Assembly (NCBI RefSeq): GCF_054482525.1
Contig: NZ_CM137006.1
Direction: 5' to 3' (one strand)
Length of the DNA stretch: 64,000 nt
Part shown: in pieces, positions 6,523 to 10,843 of the stretch
Numbering within the stretch: the first letter of the stretch is position 1
Layout: each line of letters starts with the position of its first letter
The notes under the pieces: generated by a model
Seen by the model: the letters and a program-made list of their open reading frames with translations, nothing else
What the model was told of the DNA's origin: nothing
Database searches by the model: none
Translations under genes and position numbers: made by a program

Positions 6523-6598
6523 GGCCCTTTAGCTCAGTGGTGAGAGCGAGCGACTCATAATCGCCAGGTCGCTGGTTCAAATCCAGCAAGGGCCACCA
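6523..6598 (+). tRNA. ileZ: tRNA-Ile2 type (anticodon CAT, ileX/ileZ-like)
   Basis: Cloverleaf is readable. CAT lies at 6556-6558. The sequence is very close to E. coli ileX as recalled, and CCA is encoded. Confidence 0.8.
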
Positions 6599-6599
6599 G

Positions 6600-6676
6600 C
6601 CGCCACTAGCTCATCAGGAAAGAGCGTCAACCCTTTAAGTTGAGTGTGCGAGGTTCGAGTCCCCGGTGGCGGTCCA
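6600..6676 (+). tRNA. noncanonical tRNA-like gene: anticodon loop CCTTTAA (nominal UUU, C at position 33), C1-G72, U73
   Basis: Acceptor stem CCGCCAC/GTGGCGG is 7/7. D stem is GCTC/GAGC. Anticodon stem TCAAC/GTTGA is 5/5. T stem CGAGG/CCCCG has one A-C mismatch. The T loop is TTCGAGT and CCA is encoded. Confidence 0.6.
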
Positions 6677-6678
6677 GT

Positions 6679-6754
<76 letters not shown>

Positions 6755-6757
6755 TAT

Positions 6758-6832
<75 letters not shown>

Positions 6833-7343: not shown

Positions 7344-7694
7344 ATGACTCAAAACTATGAACTGATTGTGAAAGGGATCCGCAATTTTGAGAATAAAGTT
7401 ACGGTAACTTTAGCGTTACGGGACAAAAAACGCTTTGACGGCGAAATTTTTGACCTGGACATCTCGCTGGACCGTGTTGAAGGTGCCGCGCTGGAGTTTT
7501 ATGAGGCAGCAGCCAGAAGGAGCATCAGACAGGTCTTCCTGGATGTTGCTGCCGGGTTATGTGAAGGGGATGAGCAGTCGCCGGAAAAGCGCCCCGTAAT
7601 TTTAGAGGCGCAGAATGTGTGGATAACCTACAAAGGAAAGCTACCAGGAAGAATTACTGGTTCTCTGAAGACTCCTCCGGAATCACAACCTTAA
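7344..7694 (+). CDS. DUF1327 (YdfR-like) protein between holin and endolysin
   Basis: The N-terminal two thirds (YELIVKGIRNFENKVTVT...FDGEIFDLD...VEGAALEFYEAAARRS) resemble Qin YdfR as recalled. Confidence 0.65.
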   Translation: MTQNYELIVKGIRNFENKVTVTLALRDKKRFDGEIFDLDISLDRVEGAALEFYEAAARRSIRQVFLDVAAGLCEGDEQSPEKRPVILEAQNVWITYKGKLPGRITGSLKTPPESQP

Positions 7695-7757: not shown

Positions 7758-8291
7758 ATGAACGCAAAAATCAGATACGGCCTGTCGGCTGCCGTTCTGG
7801 CACTGATTGCCGTCGGTGCGCCCGCGCCTGATATTCTCGACCAGTTTCTGGATGAAAAAGAAGGTAACCACACAACGGCATACCGCGATGGTTCCGGCAT
7901 CTGGACCATCTGTCGGGGTGCCACGATGGTGGATGGAAAACCCGTTTTTCCCGGTATGAAACTGTCGAAGGAAAAATGCGACCAGGTCAACGCCATTGAG
8001 CGTGATAAGGCGCTGGCATGGGTGGAGCGCAATATTAAAGTACCACTGACCGAACCACAAAAAGCGGGTATCGCGTCATTTTGTCCCTATAACATTGGCC
8101 CCGGTAAGTGTTTTCCATCGACGTTTTATAAGCGGCTGAATGCTGGTGATCGTAAGGGCGCATGCGAGGCGATTCGCTGGTGGATAAAAGATGGTGGGCG
8201 CGATTGCCGCATACGTTCAAATAACTGCTATGGACAGGTTATTCGTCGTGACCAGGAAAGCGCATTAGCCTGTTGGGGAATAGATCAGTGA
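7758..8291 (+). CDS. SAR endolysin, T4-lysozyme-like (GH24), R21/RrrQ type
   Basis: N-terminal SAR segment is [18 protein letters not shown]. The catalytic E-D-T spacing is seen in [20 protein letters not shown]. Confidence 0.9.
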
Positions 8292-8755
8292 GCAGAGTCG
8301 CCGCGATTATTTATGCTCTGGTTATCTGCATCATCGTCTGCCTGTCGTGGGCGGTCAATCATTACCGTGATAACGCCATCACCTACAAAGAACAGCGTGA
8401 TAAAAAAGTCAGTGAGCTGAAGCAGCTGACCGCCACCATCGCTGACATGCAGCAGCGTCAGCGTGATGTTGCTGCGCTCGATGCAAAGTACTCGAGAGAA
8501 TTAGCCAATGCGAAAGCTGAAAATGAAACTCTGCGCGCTGATGTTGCCGCTGGTCGTAAGCGCCTGCGGGTCAATGCCAGTTGCTCCGCAGCCGTGCGTG
8601 AAGCCACCGGACCCACCAGCGTGGATAATGCAACCAGCCCCAGACTGGCAGACACCGCTGAACGGGATTATTTCACCCTCAGAGAACGGTTGATGACGAT
8701 GCAGAAGCAACTGGAAGGGGCACAGCTATACATTCGTGAGCAATGTCTCAGATAA
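8288..8755 (+). CDS. Rz: i-spanin Rz
   Basis: The GTG at 8288 overlaps the endolysin stop. The sequence is close to lambda Rz ([17 protein letters not shown]...[15 protein letters not shown]). Confidence 0.85.
8508..8693 (+). CDS. Rz1: o-spanin Rz1 lipoprotein, embedded in the +1 frame of Rz
   Basis: Lipobox is [36 protein letters not shown] matches lambda Rz1. Confidence 0.85.
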
Positions 8756-8910
8756 AAACCGGCCAAGGATAATCCGCTAAAGATTCGCCGGTGGCGAAAG
8801 AGAGCCAAGGTGTCAACCTACGCTATTACTTATGATAATGCAACAGACGAAGCGGGACATATTGGCGCATAACAAATCAGTGCAGGCTAACTGCAGGAAG
8901 AACTTAGGGC

Positions 8911-9177
8911 GTGAACGTAGAAAACCTAAGTAACGCACATTACATCTATAACGAGATGAAAGAGCTACAGCGACAGAAAGGTATACTGGAAAGTGGTGCA
9001 GGGCTTGGTGTGACAATCCAGTCTGCCTATCAATATAGTGCTTTTCTTGAGGCCATACGCCCGCATGCAGTTGCTGAACTTAACAGCCGTATTGAGGAAA
9101 AGAAATCCGCGCTGGTTAATTTGGGTGCTTCCTTCTCTATATACGAGCATAATAAGGCGGGTTGGAAACCCGCCTAA
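8911..9177 (+). CDS. hypothetical 88-aa protein (GTG start; uncertain gene)
   Basis: ORF in an AT-rich moron. The start codon lies in the loop of CTTAGG...CCTAAG. The last codons lie inside the 9155-9175 hairpin. No family was recognised. Confidence 0.35.
   Translation: MNVENLSNAHYIYNEMKELQRQKGILESGAGLGVTIQSAYQYSAFLEAIRPHAVAELNSRIEEKKSALVNLGASFSIYEHNKAGWKPA
9155..9175. terminator. hairpin between convergent genes (AGGCGGGTT-GGA-AACCCGCCT), possible bidirectional terminator
   Basis: 8-9 bp GC-rich stem. The flanking tails are only weakly T-rich. Confidence 0.45.
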
Positions 9178-9182
9178 AGCAC

Positions 9183-9722
9183 TTAGAAACTGCGTGGAGC
9201 TGTGGAAAGAATGGATGCCAGTTCTTCCTTCGATAAATCCCAGCTTCGATTTACAGCGTCAATTTTCTTAAACTCATCAAGCATTGCGTTATAGAGATGT
9301 TCTGTACGTGAATGAGTATTGGCAATGGGCTGTTTCTGTTCGGGGAAGCGATCAATTTTCTGATATGCCTCAATGATACTGAAGTAATCGCATTCATTAT
9401 TACCGTCGAAACCTGGGAGCTGAATTGCCCCATCATGTATTTTTAGATGATGGTCACGGACTAATTCTTTTTGCTCGTCATCACTAAGTTTCCTGAAAGC
9501 ATTGGAAAGTCCGCGATACATATTCAAGACAGCAGTAACAAAATCACGATCTTCTTTACTTGGTTCATCAACATCCAAATGTGAATATTCGGCCTTCATA
9601 ACCCAACCATTACCAGATGACACAGCATATTTAACAAGCTGTGGATCAATATCAGTTTCGATACCTAGGTGGATGGCAATGTCACATAACAAAATGGTAT
9701 TGATTTTATCTTTAATATCCAT
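9183..9722 (-). CDS. YfbU-family (UPF0304)-like protein, transcribed against the late operon
   Basis: By eye it is collinear with E. coli YfbU (recalled). Matching blocks are VLNMYRGLSNAF vs IMEMYHALHVSW, LPGFDGNNE vs FLGFDAATE, a conserved RF/RY, YNAMLDEF vs YQRMLNVW, and LSKEELASIL vs LSANEINQII. Confidence 0.6.
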   Translation of the reverse strand: MDIKDKINTILLCDIAIHLGIETDIDPQLVKYAVSSGNGWVMKAEYSHLDVDEPSKEDRDFVTAVLNMYRGLSNAFRKLSDDEQKELVRDHHLKIHDGAIQLPGFDGNNECDYFSIIEAYQKIDRFPEQKQPIANTHSRTEHLYNAMLDEFKKIDAVNRSWDLSKEELASILSTAPRSF

Positions 9723-9860
9723 GAGTTAACCCTCTGAAGTAAAAAGTAATATCTACACCCGTTAGCTCATGAAGTCTATTGATCTGGCTCATATCAGCGG
9801 CAAATCTATTTCATGGAGATACTCAATGCAGGTCACTTTTGATTTATATAAGGGCGAAAC

Positions 9861-10211
9861 ATGCCAGCACTAATCCCACGAGCCTGCCGTAAACGTGGAT
9901 GTGCAGGTACAACCACAGACAGTTCTGGTTACTGCGATAAACATCGTGGCGAAGGATGGGTACAGCATCAGCGCGGACTGAGTCGCCACCAGCGTGGCTA
10001 TGGCTCGAAATGGGATGCCATACGTGCGCGCATACTGAAGCGTGATAATGATCTGTGTCAGAACTGCCTGCGCAATGGGAGAGCCGTTGAAGCCAGAACT
10101 GTGGACCACATCATTCCGAAAGCTCATGGTGGCTCGGATGCAGACAGTAACCTGCAGAGTCTGTGCTGGCCCTGCCATAAAGCAAAAACAGCGCGCGAAC
10201 GCATCAATTGA
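9861..10211 (+). CDS. HNH endonuclease associated with the terminase (HK97 gp74-like)
   Basis: Contains DHIIPKAHGGSDADSNLQSLCWPCHKAKT. It lies immediately upstream of terS/terL. Confidence 0.85.
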   Translation: MPALIPRACRKRGCAGTTTDSSGYCDKHRGEGWVQHQRGLSRHQRGYGSKWDAIRARILKRDNDLCQNCLRNGRAVEARTVDHIIPKAHGGSDADSNLQSLCWPCHKAKTARERIN

Positions 10212-10360
10212 TAACAGTTCCCATCTGTAGGGGAGGGGTGGGTCAAATCCCTGCAGCCCTGGCTGCTCAGTACCGCCGCCTGACCCTTCCTCACATCGCC
10301 GCAGGTTCGAAAACTTTTTTTTTGGAAATGTGAACAAACGATTGATAGGTAAGACCGATT

Positions 10361-10843
10361 ATGTCAGGACCTCCGAAAACCCCGCCACGCCTGCATTTGA
10401 TTCGAGGTAACCCCTCAAAGCGCCCCGTTAAAGACCACAAAAAAACCGCTAAAAAGGATGAAAAAGGTCTTCCTAAAATTCCGCAGCATTTAGGGGCTCA
10501 GGGGAAGTACTGGTTCAGGCGAATGGCGGAAGAGCTGAATGCGGAAGGGATCATTTCTCAGCTTGATGCGCGTGCGCTCGAGCTGCTGGTGGAAGCCTAC
10601 ACCGAATATCGGCATCACTGCGAAACACTCGATGTTGAGGGGTATACCTACCGCACGGAAACGCAGAGCGGTGATGTACTGATTAAGGCGCACCCCGCGG
10701 CGGCAATGAAAGCGGATGCCTGGAAGCGGATCCGGGCAATGCTTGCAGAGTTTGGTATGTCACCGGCAAGCCGGGCTAAAGTAAATATCGCCGGACCGGA
10801 TGATGTTGATCCGCTGGCGGAGCTTTTAAAAGCGAGAGACTGA
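10361..10843 (+). CDS. terminase small subunit, P27 family
   Basis: Typical of P27-type TerS in length, in the N-terminal PPRLHLIRGNPSKRP, and in the C-terminal FGMSPASRAK. Confidence 0.8.
   Translation: MSGPPKTPPRLHLIRGNPSKRPVKDHKKTAKKDEKGLPKIPQHLGAQGKYWFRRMAEELNAEGIISQLDARALELLVEAYTEYRHHCETLDVEGYTYRTETQSGDVLIKAHPAAAMKADAWKRIRAMLAEFGMSPASRAKVNIAGPDDVDPLAELLKARD

What the first reader, a model, noticed from the sequence alone, without database searches (positions are those of the whole stretch)
8756..9860. AT-rich convergent two-gene moron (88-aa ORF + YfbU-family protein) between spanins and HNH/terminase
- Location: the ~1.1-kb segment between Rz/Rz1 and the HNH-terminase block is visibly AT-richer than the flanking late genes.
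- Main gene: a 179-aa gene is transcribed against the late operon. It is collinear with the YfbU (UPF0304) family, whose function is unknown.
- Partner ORF: it converges on an 88-aa ORF across a shared GC hairpin (9155-9175).
- Why it matters: reverse-oriented, self-contained cargo at the lysis/packaging junction is a classic site for lysogen-expressed genes such as defence, exclusion or virulence morons. No characterised defence family is recognisable here.
- Overall: this is the best candidate in the window for an undescribed lysogen-expressed function.
Basis: partly seen in the sequence, partly recalled or inferred. Interest (0 to 1): 0.7.

Follow-up and report, generated by a model that had tools for sequence, protein, structure and literature searches.

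The report
Antisense YfbU-fold gene in prophage cargo slot
Between the lysis and DNA-packaging genes of an E. coli prophage sits one backward-facing, AT-rich cargo gene for a YfbU-fold protein; it resembles the recently described anti-phage protein Kamadhenu and is probably a phage defence gene, while its small 88-aa neighbour is an unrelated late-operon gene.

Summary
Window 8756-9860 lies between Rz/Rz1 and HNH-terminase. It contains an 88-aa plus-strand ORF, a 9-bp GC hairpin (9155-9175) and a 179-aa minus-strand gene of 39% GC against 52-54% in the flanks.

The "two-gene moron" reading is only half right:
- The 88-aa ORF belongs to a 76-aa late-operon family. It lost its stop codon here, and 48 of 80 related phage loci carry it without YfbU.
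- The cargo is the ~720-bp YfbU module alone (9138-9860). About 24% of E. coli genomes with this HNH-TerS module carry it (223 of 926).
- In 73 of 78 viral loci, YfbU relatives down to 29% identity are antisense to the recognised lysis or packaging genes beside them. This is the slot where a related E. coli phage carries the lambda-type moron bor.

"No characterised defence family" is out of date. Kamadhenu (2024) is a 180-aa single-gene YfbU-domain abortive-infection protein and is absent from PADLOC and DefenseFinder.

The most likely function is a lysogen-expressed, Kamadhenu-like defence. This is inferred, not shown. I rate it a new member of a known kind, of moderate interest.

The parts
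8273..8755 (+). Rz spanin gene (Rz1 embedded at 8508-8693). This is the left flank and the last recognisable lysis gene.
   Evidence: ORF list. Pfam PF03245 Phage_lysis E=1.6e-49. RefSeq annotates an Rz1 family lipoprotein here.
8842..9137 (+). orf76/orf88 module, which is independent of the YfbU module: about 70 nt of upstream sequence plus the conserved 76 codons.
   Evidence: blastn shows 87-88% identity over window 8842-9137 to viral loci that lack YfbU (L132, L146, L149, L123).
8911..9177 (+). 88-aa ORF. It is a member of PHROG 5415, a family that is normally 76 aa, and is a small late-operon gene predicted to form a helical hairpin. It is not an obligate partner of the YfbU gene.
   Evidence: - PHROG 5415, E=2e-38, matching residues 1-76.
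- 276 homologues, mostly 76 aa; alignment A4.
- dN/dS 0.22-0.26.
- AF2 predicts two long helices, with residues 78-87 disordered.
- No Pfam, NCBIfam or PADLOC hit, and no significant PDB fold match.
- 48 of 80 viral loci have it without YfbU.
9139..9141 (+). Codon ATA where relatives have the TAA stop. Losing the stop adds a 12-aa read-through tail to the ORF. The codon lies at the left junction of the YfbU module.
   Evidence: DNA alignment A1, codon list, module boundary.
9155..9175 (.). GC hairpin with a 9-bp stem, 8 nt past the YfbU-like stop on the minus strand. It is likely a 3' end or stabiliser element for the minus-strand transcript, and not a strong block to late plus-strand transcription.
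   Evidence: Folding on both strands. Compensatory stem changes in relatives. The tail is UUAUUAU on the minus strand and UAAAGCA on the plus strand, and the terminator scan does not call it.
9183..9722 (-). 179-aa YfbU-fold protein of the mobile-element clade. This is the cargo gene.
   Evidence: - Pfam PF03887, 48.4 bits against a cut-off of 25.
- PHROG 6084, E=4e-82.
- Profile against PDB 1wpb/4lr3, E=2.3e-7.
- dN/dS about 0.12.
- RefSeq name is 'YfbU family protein'.
9730..9735 (-). Shine-Dalgarno-like AGAGGG, 7 nt upstream of the ATG at 9722.
   Evidence: Sequence. Conserved across relatives (A5).
9750..9778 (-). Putative weak sigma-70 promoter for the YfbU-like gene: -35 TAGACT (9778-9773), a 17-nt spacer, then -10 TAGATA (9755-9750). 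This is inferred.
   Evidence: The same architecture recurs as TGGACT-17-TAAGAA and TGGACT-17-TAAAAA in relatives of 59-62% protein identity (A5); coordinates. Against: it falls below the thresholds of the consensus scan, which found no minus-strand promoter here.
9138..9860 (-). The self-contained YfbU cargo module of about 720 bp: hairpin, coding sequence, RBS and conserved 5' region. It is absent from related phages.
   Evidence: In YfbU-less loci, homology to the window stops at 9125-9138 and resumes at 9856-9861. About 100 nt upstream of the ATG travels with the gene, even in an 83%-identity relative (A2).
9861..10211 (+). HNH endonuclease gene. This is the right flank and the first gene of the HNH / TerS(P27) / TerL packaging module.
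   Evidence: Pfam PF01844 E=2.3e-16 and PF05119 for TerS. RefSeq annotation.

Best explanation
Window 9138-9860 is a single-gene, self-contained cargo module (a moron). It sits antisense in the slot between the lysis genes and the packaging genes of an HK97/P27-type E. coli prophage. A related E. coli phage carries bor there, as lambda does.

The module encodes a 179-aa, all-helical, two-domain YfbU-fold protein. This protein belongs to a clade carried on phages and plasmids, and it is not an orthologue of chromosomal YfbU.

The most likely mechanism is as follows, and every step is inferred:
- The gene is transcribed from its own weak promoter in the lysogen, against the silent late operon.
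- It acts like Kamadhenu, the lactococcal single-gene YfbU-domain system, as an abortive-infection-type defence against superinfecting phages.
- By analogy with Kamadhenu escape mutants, it may be triggered by, or act through, a phage single-strand annealing protein, and it may act at a late step of infection.

The adjacent 88-aa ORF is a separate, conserved small gene at the tail of the late lysis operon. It lost its stop codon at the module junction.

Shown here: anatomy, fold, family, purifying selection, cargo status and positional conservation. Inferred: expression in the lysogen, defence function, trigger.
For: Family and fold:
- PF03887 scores above the gathering cut-off.
- A profile of 33 homologues hits PDB YfbU entries 1wpb and 4lr3 at E=2.3e-7.

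It is not the housekeeping gene:
- The NCBIfam YfbU equivalog scores 35.5 bits against a cut-off of 90.
- Identity to K-12 YfbU is 20%.
- hhalign places it closer to an Enterococcus plasmid YfbU (E=4.7e-13) than to K-12 YfbU (E=5.9e-8).
- The mobile-element proteins in alignment A6 share GFDxN..E, N[ST]H and Y motifs. K-12 YfbU has NAQ at the N[ST]H position.

It is a real, selected gene:
- dN/dS is about 0.12 against Klebsiella and Salmonella copies.

It is cargo:
- GC is 39% against 52-54% in the flanks.
- The module boundaries are sharp.
- The slot is empty in phi467 and holds antisense Bor in 640R1.
- 223-224 of the 926 E. coli genomes with this HNH-TerS module carry the gene.
- Other relatives carry diverse unknown genes in the same slot.

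Position and orientation:
- In 73 of 78 IMG/VR loci with relatives of 100% down to 29% identity, the gene is antisense to the recognised neighbouring genes.
- In 49 of those loci packaging genes lie on its 5' side and lysis genes on its 3' side.
- This holds across at least two packaging types (HNH/TerS-P27/TerL and Nu1-like/GpA) and several lysis cassettes (also 30-32).

Autonomy:
- The 5' region with an RBS and a promoter-like -35/-10 is conserved.
- The 3' hairpin shows covariation.

Precedent from papers:
- All escape mutants map to G22 of a Sak-like annealing protein (PMC12184496).
- It has no effect on phage DNA replication, transcription or translation (PMC13064643).
- It is absent from PADLOC and DefenseFinder (PMC13335696), which explains the empty PADLOC result.
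Against: - There are no expression data. The consensus promoter scan finds nothing on the minus strand, and the proposed -10 (TAGATA) lacks the conserved final T.
- The hairpin has no U-tract.
- An AT-rich gene in E. coli may be silenced by H-NS (general knowledge).
- The link to Kamadhenu rests on domain, size, fold and mobile-element carriage only. I could not obtain its sequence, and the nearest Gram-positive plasmid YfbU I could fetch is only about 25% identical.
- Kamadhenu was assayed when constitutively expressed from a high-copy vector, and its mechanism is unknown (PMC11381338, PMC12184496).
- The very strict positional conservation could instead point to a role in the phage's own lysis or packaging biology.
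- One viral contig has the gene split by IS5. That shows only that it is dispensable.
Confidence: 0.55

Rival explanations
1. Host-physiology modulator. The prophage copy acts on the pathway of chromosomal YfbU, which has been reported as a 'death gene' needed for mazEF-linked death after DNA damage. For example, it might mix into or compete with the YfbU oligomer. This would tune cell death or survival around SOS induction of the prophage, rather than sense foreign phages.
For: It has the same fold as chromosomal YfbU over 148 residues. E. coli delta-yfbU survives DNA-damage-triggered, mazEF-dependent death (PMC2646832). 1WPB and 4LR3 each hold 16 chains, which suggests higher-order assembly. 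The prophage has a LexA-family repressor, so it is probably SOS-inducible.
Against: Identity to host YfbU is only 20%, so co-assembly is doubtful. The clade has its own invariant residues, such as His137, which host YfbU lacks. The family has diversified to 29% identity within one slot, which suits an arms race better than tuning of a conserved host pathway. The only functional test of a mobile-element YfbU protein showed anti-phage activity (PMC11381338).
Confidence: 0.15
2. Phage lytic-cycle accessory. The protein serves the phage's own late functions at the lysis/packaging boundary, for example as a cofactor or regulator of cos cleavage and packaging, or of lysis timing. That would explain its fixed position.
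For: The position between lysis and packaging genes is kept in 49 of 78 loci, across relatives down to about 30% identity. A Bacillus relative sits just after an ArpU-type late regulator.
Against: The gene is antisense to the late operon in 73 of 78 loci. It is absent from about three quarters of E. coli genomes with the same HNH-TerS module, and from the phages phi467, Evi, 606R7 and PhiR49_2, which carry related Rz and HNH sequences. It is found with at least two unrelated packaging systems. Relatives also sit on small plasmids that have no phage genes. Its GC content is foreign to the flanks.
Confidence: 0.1
3. Counter-defence. The protein protects the phage or prophage from a host or rival abortive-infection system, for instance by mimicking or blocking host YfbU- or MazEF-type death.
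For: It is a divergent copy of a host protein implicated in programmed death (PMC2646832). Phage cargo slots also carry anti-defence genes (general knowledge).
Against: Anti-defence genes are usually expressed early in infection (general knowledge), whereas this gene sits antisense within the late-gene region. The only tested relative is a defence, not an anti-defence (PMC11381338). No inhibitor-like features are apparent; it is a full-size YfbU fold.
Confidence: 0.08
4. Two-gene system. The 88-aa protein and the YfbU-like protein work together, for example as toxin and antitoxin or as sensor and effector, as a convergent pair sharing a terminator.
For: They are adjacent in the 35 viral loci of the clade with 89% identity or more, and in the Klebsiella, Salmonella and E. 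coli prophage loci read from genome assemblies.
Against: 48 of 80 orf88 loci lack YfbU. YfbU relatives at 82%, 78%, 75% and 62% identity or less lack orf88. The genes are on opposite strands. orf88 is translationally coupled to the upstream late gene in Salmonella relatives (ATGA overlap). The two lie in separate recombination modules. They evolve at different rates: 93-94% against about 73-80% identity between E. coli and Klebsiella or Salmonella copies.
Confidence: 0.04

Closest known systems
Kamadhenu (Lactococcus plasmid pUCCL624_130), a single-gene Abi-like antiphage system (Grafakou et al. 2024, PMC11381338; Mosterd et al. 2025, PMC12184496)
   Different: Kamadhenu sits on a Gram-positive plasmid, whereas this gene sits in a Gram-negative prophage. 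Sequence relatedness could not be measured because the Kamadhenu sequence is not held here. The nearest Gram-positive plasmid YfbU I could fetch is about 25% identical. No phenotype, trigger or escape data exist for the E. coli gene. Kamadhenu was tested with constitutive expression from a high-copy vector.
Chromosomal E. coli YfbU (b2294; UPF0304; PDB 1WPB and 4LR3)
   Same: Both belong to Pfam family PF03887, share the same fold, and share the GFD...E...Y motif.
   Different: Identity is 20%. The window protein fails the NCBIfam equivalog cut-off, with 35.5 against 90 bits. It is 15 aa longer (179 against 164 aa). The prophage clade has N[ST]H where YfbU has NAQ. One is a housekeeping locus next to hxpA and yfbV and the other is prophage cargo. 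The function of YfbU itself is unknown apart from a 'death gene' phenotype (PMC2646832).
Lambda bor-type moron, an antisense lysogen-expressed gene between Rz and the packaging genes
   Same: Both occupy the same slot with the same antisense orientation and a single-gene, self-contained layout. Bor occupies exactly this slot in the related phage vB_EcoS-640R1. That bor is expressed in lambda lysogens is established knowledge, not tested here.
   Different: The proteins are unrelated. Bor is a lipoprotein of about 97 aa, whereas the YfbU-like protein is predicted all-helical and matches the YfbU fold along its length. No serum-resistance role is implied.
PHROG 6084 and PHROG 5415 (phage protein families of unknown function)
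   Same: The 179-aa protein matches PHROG 6084 end to end (E=4e-82). The 88-aa ORF matches PHROG 5415 over residues 1-76 (E=2e-38). Both are therefore already catalogued phage families.
   Different: PHROGs assigns no function to either family. This work adds the YfbU/Kamadhenu link, the independence of the two families, and the slot statistics.

Membership tests
YfbU / UPF0304 (Pfam PF03887) | Matches the Pfam HMM above the curated gathering score | tested here: met
   E=1.4e-12, 48.4 bits against a cut-off of 25; residues 38-172 match profile positions 38-164 of 166.
YfbU / UPF0304 (Pfam PF03887) | Two-domain all-helical YfbU fold as in PDB 1WPB | tested here: met
YfbU / UPF0304 (Pfam PF03887) | Orthologue of the chromosomal yfbU gene (NCBIfam equivalog NF003936) | tested here: not met
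   35.5 bits against a cut-off of 90. Identity to K-12 YfbU is 20%. The genomic context differs: prophage here, hxpA-yfbU-yfbV in K-12. It is a mobile-element paralogue.
Kamadhenu (single-gene YfbU-domain defence) | Single protein of about 180 aa whose only recognisable domain is YfbU | tested here: met
   179 aa; PF03887 is the only Pfam match above its cut-off. No conserved second gene lies in the module.
Kamadhenu (single-gene YfbU-domain defence) | Carried on a mobile genetic element as accessory cargo | tested here: met
   It is prophage cargo, variably present. Relatives occur on plasmids and phages.
Kamadhenu (single-gene YfbU-domain defence) | Sequence homology to pUCCL624_130 closer than to chromosomal YfbU | not testable with these tools
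   The Kamadhenu sequence is not held. The paper has no text supplements, and no Lactococcus record was listed in the plasmid or protein searches. As a proxy, the clade is closer to an Enterococcus plasmid YfbU (hhalign E=4.7e-13) than to K-12 YfbU (E=5.9e-8).
Kamadhenu (single-gene YfbU-domain defence) | Confers phage resistance with an Abi-like phenotype, with escape through a phage single-strand annealing protein | not testable with these tools
   This needs wet-lab phage challenge. The literature basis is PMC11381338 and PMC12184496.
Moron / lysogen-expressed cargo at the lambda bor position | Discrete insert between conserved phage modules that is absent from close relatives and differs in base composition | tested here: met
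   Boundaries are 9138 and 9860. The slot is empty in phi467 and holds Bor in 640R1. GC is 39% against 52-54%.
Moron / lysogen-expressed cargo at the lambda bor position | Own promoter and terminator, and transcribed in the lysogen | tested here: inconclusive
   A conserved promoter-like -35/-10 with RBS and a covarying 3' hairpin are present. However, the consensus scans call neither of them, and no expression data are available.
Two-gene toxin-antitoxin-like or partner system (orf88 + YfbU) | Obligate co-occurrence and co-transcription of the two genes | tested here: not met
   The genes are on convergent strands. 48 of 80 orf88 loci lack YfbU. YfbU relatives of 82% identity or less lack orf88. 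They lie in separate recombination modules.
Known defence systems in PADLOC-DB v2.0.0 | HMM match to any catalogued defence protein | tested here: not met
   No families matched either protein at E<=1. The database dates from 2023, before Kamadhenu was published.

The most novel reading that the evidence does not exclude
YfbU-fold proteins would form a broad, rapidly diversifying family of single-gene superinfection defences. They would be locked, antisense, into the lysis/packaging junction of enterobacterial temperate phages, and would sense phage recombination (single-strand annealing) proteins. The long-unexplained chromosomal YfbU 'death gene' would then be a domesticated relative using the same effector chemistry, centred on the conserved GFD..E / N[ST]H / Y residues.
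Probability: 0.25. Interest if true: 0.65.

Novelty: new member of a known kind. Interest (0 to 1): 0.4.

Why it matters
- YfbU is a conserved E. coli protein with a crystal structure released in 2004 and still no biochemical function.
- The one functional clue for mobile YfbU proteins, Kamadhenu, comes from Lactococcus, and its mechanism is unknown.
- A prophage-borne YfbU protein is present in about 4% of complete E. coli genomes, and copies 93-94% identical were found in Klebsiella and Salmonella prophages. That moves the question into the most tractable phage-host system.
- There, the trigger, the effector activity and the roles of the invariant Asp106, Glu110, His137 and Tyr144 could be tested directly.
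- This gene family is missed by current defence-finding tools.
- The slot between lysis and packaging genes in these prophages holds many other unannotated cargo genes that are worth screening.
- If no phenotype is found, this is simply one more catalogued moron of unknown function.

Tried and rejected
- PADLOC on both proteins returned nothing. This is uninformative, because Kamadhenu post-dates the database.
- Single-sequence phmmer of the 179-aa protein against the PDB gave only a spurious stathmin-repeat match. A profile was needed to reach 1WPB.
- I tried four ways to obtain the Kamadhenu sequence: tblastn of the window protein and of an Enterococcus YfbU against PLSDB, the paper's supplements, and a profile search of the 5.8-billion-protein set. 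No Lactococcus entry was listed, so the direct comparison is left open.
- The 88-aa protein has no Pfam, NCBIfam or PADLOC hit. The Foldseek search of its model against the PDB gave only generic helical hairpins at E>0.5. No function is assigned.
- Rfam found no RNA family in 8500-10400 at E<=1.
- The repeat search found no direct or inverted repeats bracketing the cassette that would suggest transposition or site-specific insertion. Modular recombination is the simpler origin.
- The consensus promoter and terminator scan found no minus-strand promoter and did not call the 9155-9175 hairpin. My promoter proposal is therefore marked as inferred.
- Ten representative cargo proteins from the same slot in other phages gave no Pfam hit above its cut-off, and only two marginal PADLOC hits (E about 0.004-0.01). 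I cannot show that the slot is enriched for known defence genes.
- I considered and rejected the toxin-antitoxin pair, the lineage-core gene and the pseudogene readings, on grounds of distribution, variable presence and dN/dS respectively.
Full report
**Where the window comes from.** The segment is 100% identical to a prophage in the E. coli strain W46 chromosome and 99.1-99.6% identical to two sequenced phages, vB_EcoS-689R5 and vB_EcoS-611R1. The local gene order is: antiterminator, four tRNAs, holin, YdfR, lysozyme, Rz/Rz1, the finding, HNH, TerS (P27 family), TerL, portal, HK97-type head genes.

**Checking the observation.**
- The 88-aa ORF is at 8911-9177 (+) and the 179-aa ORF at 9183-9722 (-).
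- The GC hairpin is at 9155-9175. It has a 9-bp stem, dG -16 to -17.6 kcal/mol, and z of -2.4 to -3.3 against shuffles.
- GC drops to 0.37-0.42, against 0.50-0.57 in the flanks. Per gene it is 39.3% for the 179-aa gene and 52-54% for Rz, HNH, TerS and TerL.
- Both ORFs are real genes under purifying selection. dN/dS against Klebsiella and Salmonella copies is about 0.12 for the 179-aa gene and 0.22-0.26 for the small ORF.

**The 179-aa protein.**
- It matches Pfam PF03887 (YfbU) above the curated cut-off, at 48.4 against 25 bits, and matches PHROG 6084 end to end.
- As a single sequence it does not reach any PDB entry. A profile of 33 homologues hits E. coli YfbU (1wpb, 4lr3) at E=2.3e-7.
- It is not the housekeeping gene. 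The NCBIfam equivalog scores 35.5 bits against a cut-off of 90. Identity to K-12 YfbU is 20%.
- Profile comparison places it nearer to an Enterococcus plasmid YfbU (E=4.7e-13) than to K-12 YfbU (E=5.9e-8).
- The phage and plasmid proteins in alignment A6 share G-F/Y-D-x-N..E, N-S/T-H and Tyr motifs. Chromosomal YfbU has NAQ in place of N[ST]H.

**The 88-aa ORF is not a partner.**
- It belongs to PHROG 5415, whose profile and most members are 76 aa long.
- In the window the family's TAA stop is ATA (9139-9141), so translation runs 12 further codons through the hairpin. That tail is predicted to be disordered.
- In Salmonella relatives its ATG overlaps the stop of the upstream spanin-position gene (ATGA), so there it is a late-operon gene.
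- In 80 IMG/VR loci it always lies on the late strand, and where lysis genes are recognisable it lies immediately after them. Only 32 of these loci also carry YfbU.
- Conversely, YfbU relatives at 82%, 78%, 75% and 62% identity or less have no orf88.
- blastn against loci without YfbU shows two separate modules: orf76 at window 8842-9137 and the YfbU module at 9138-9860.
- The predicted structure is a two-helix hairpin with no informative match. Its function remains unknown.

**Cargo status and the slot.**
- Phage phi467 joins Rz to HNH with a 42-bp gap.
- vB_EcoS-640R1 has antisense Bor there. Established knowledge places lambda's own bor in the equivalent position.
- Among 5,426 complete E. 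coli genomes, 926 carry this HNH-TerS module at 80% coverage or more. Only 223-224 carry the YfbU-like gene. All copies are at least 95% identical and all are chromosomal.
- In relatives that lack YfbU, the distance from orf76 to HNH or the Nu1-like gene ranges from 244 to 2,715 bp. The slot holds diverse genes on either strand, none with a Pfam hit above its cut-off and only two with marginal PADLOC hits.

**Positional conservation.**
- A scan of IMG/VR with the family alignment returned 78 loci, with relatives from 100% down to 29% identity.
- I mapped lysis and packaging genes onto them. In 73 loci the YfbU-like gene is antisense to the recognised flanking genes.
- In 49 loci packaging genes lie on its 5' side and lysis genes on its 3' side.
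- This holds for HNH/TerS-P27/TerL phages, for Nu1-like/GpA phages, and across several lysis cassettes. It also holds in 22 of 27 loci where identity is below 40%.
- Outside enterobacterial prophages, YfbU-family genes sit on Enterococcus and Acinetobacter plasmids, on a prophage-like part of a Bacillus replicon just after an ArpU late regulator, and in a P2-like Yersinia phage.

**Signals for autonomous expression.**
- About 100 nt upstream of the ATG travels with the gene.
- That region holds an AGAGGG Shine-Dalgarno (9735-9730) and a promoter-like TAGACT-17 nt-TAGATA (9778-9750). The same architecture recurs as TGGACT-17-TAAGAA and TGGACT-17-TAAAAA in relatives of 59-62% identity.
- It is weak, and the consensus scan did not call it.
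- The 3' hairpin keeps its stem through compensatory changes but has no U-run. It should therefore not block Q-antiterminated late transcription heading for the terminase genes.
- No flanking repeats and no Rfam families were found.

**What is known.**
- Chromosomal yfbU was reported as one of several genes needed for mazEF-linked death after DNA damage (PMC2646832). No biochemical function is reported for it in the papers read here.
- All escape phages carry a change at Gly22 of a Sak-like single-strand annealing protein (PMC12184496).
- Phage DNA replication, transcription and translation are unaffected, which points to a late step (PMC13064643).
- Kamadhenu is not in PADLOC or DefenseFinder (PMC13335696), which explains the empty PADLOC result.
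- I could not obtain its sequence. Membership therefore rests on domain, size, fold and mobile-element carriage.

**Most likely mechanism.**
- Shown: a single-gene, AT-rich, selectively maintained YfbU-fold cargo module, antisense in the bor-type slot.
- Inferred: it is transcribed in the lysogen and acts as a Kamadhenu-like abortive-infection defence against superinfecting phages, possibly triggered through their annealing proteins.
- In W46 the resident prophage's left arm has an exonuclease gene but no annotated annealing protein. This is compatible with no self-triggering, but it is weak evidence.
- Confidence is about 0.55.
- Rivals are: a modulator of host YfbU- or MazEF-type death (0.15), a lytic-cycle accessory tied to the junction (0.10), counter-defence (0.08), and the two-gene system (0.04).

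**Verdict.**
- The finding is real and the moron reading is right for the YfbU gene.
- It is one gene, not two.
- It has a described relative among defence systems.
- RefSeq and PHROGs already catalogue both proteins.
- This analysis adds the link to Kamadhenu, the separation of the two ORFs, and the strong slot and orientation conservation.
- Novelty: new member of a known kind. Interest: 0.4.

Noticed in passing
window 6523-6832: There are four tandem tRNA genes on the plus strand, just upstream of the holin: CAT anticodon (called Met by ARAGORN and Ile by RefSeq), Lys-TTT, Thr-TGT and Gly-TCC. phi467 carries Thr and Gly tRNA genes upstream of its lysis genes, just after stxAB.
   Followed up: no
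window 7344-7694: A YdfR-family gene (116 aa) is wedged between the holin and the lysozyme of the lysis cassette. It is conserved together with that cassette in many viral loci.
   Followed up: no
window 9778-9793 (minus strand); relatives in alignment A5: Immediately upstream of the putative -35, Klebsiella and Salmonella relatives read TGTGA-GCCAGA-TCAAT, which resembles a CRP site in a class-II-like position. The window has TATGA instead of TGTGA. This may be chance.
   Followed up: partly
L128 3552-4750 (same contig as L064): In one IMG/VR contig the YfbU-like gene is split by an insertion of about 1.2 kb. The insert encodes a 326-aa protein that I recognise, from memory only, as an IS5-type transposase. 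This is a natural knock-out of the cargo gene.
   Followed up: partly
L123-L175, between orf76 and HNH or the Nu1-like gene (for example L136 3303-3869, L167 3662-4441, L126 3276-3749, L144 3263-3943, L175 3305-3919, L142 3913-5942): In relatives, the same slot holds at least ten other cargo families on either strand. None has a Pfam hit above its cut-off. There are two marginal PADLOC hits: a 204-aa protein weakly resembling CARF/HEPN (E=0.004) and a 187-aa protein weakly resembling a 2TM effector (E=0.0099). One locus has a 2.7-kb insert with 485-aa and 196-aa ORFs that were not scanned. This is a pool of untested lysogen-cargo candidates.
   Followed up: partly
L046 6549-6809 and 8110-8334; L174 3001-3225 and 4526-4786: One phage contig, fetched twice as L046 and L174, carries two diverged copies of the orf76 family (76% and 54% identity to the window copy) about 1.3 kb apart.
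   Followed up: no
L004 4998-6035; L178 3001-4044: On Enterococcus plasmids the YfbU-family gene is followed, 1-7 nt downstream on the same strand, by a conserved gene of about 170 aa. It is annotated as hypothetical or as a (4Fe-4S)-binding protein. A Fic gene lies nearby. This may be a two-gene version of the system, unlike the prophage form.
   Followed up: no
L179 1657-3504: In a Bacillus mycoides replicon, the YfbU-family gene is the next annotated gene after an ArpU-family late (packaging/lysis) regulator, about 1 kb downstream. It is therefore again near a late-gene boundary, but here on the same strand.
   Followed up: no
L177 (strain W46 record 3,017,805-3,022,175, left of the window): The prophage's left arm has dicB, ydfD, an 823-aa exonuclease and a frameshifted integrase next to tRNA-Ser and mtfA. 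No single-strand annealing protein is annotated. The yersiniabactin island lies just beyond. The prophage may be defective in that strain.
   Followed up: partly
P0184 and P0189; L071-L078: E. coli, Morganella, Aeromonas and Lonsdalea carry a second YfbU-family group of about 183 aa. Separately, relatives of 35-39% identity to the window protein occupy the same antisense slot next to HNH or Nu1-like genes. Whether these are the same group was not checked.
   Followed up: no
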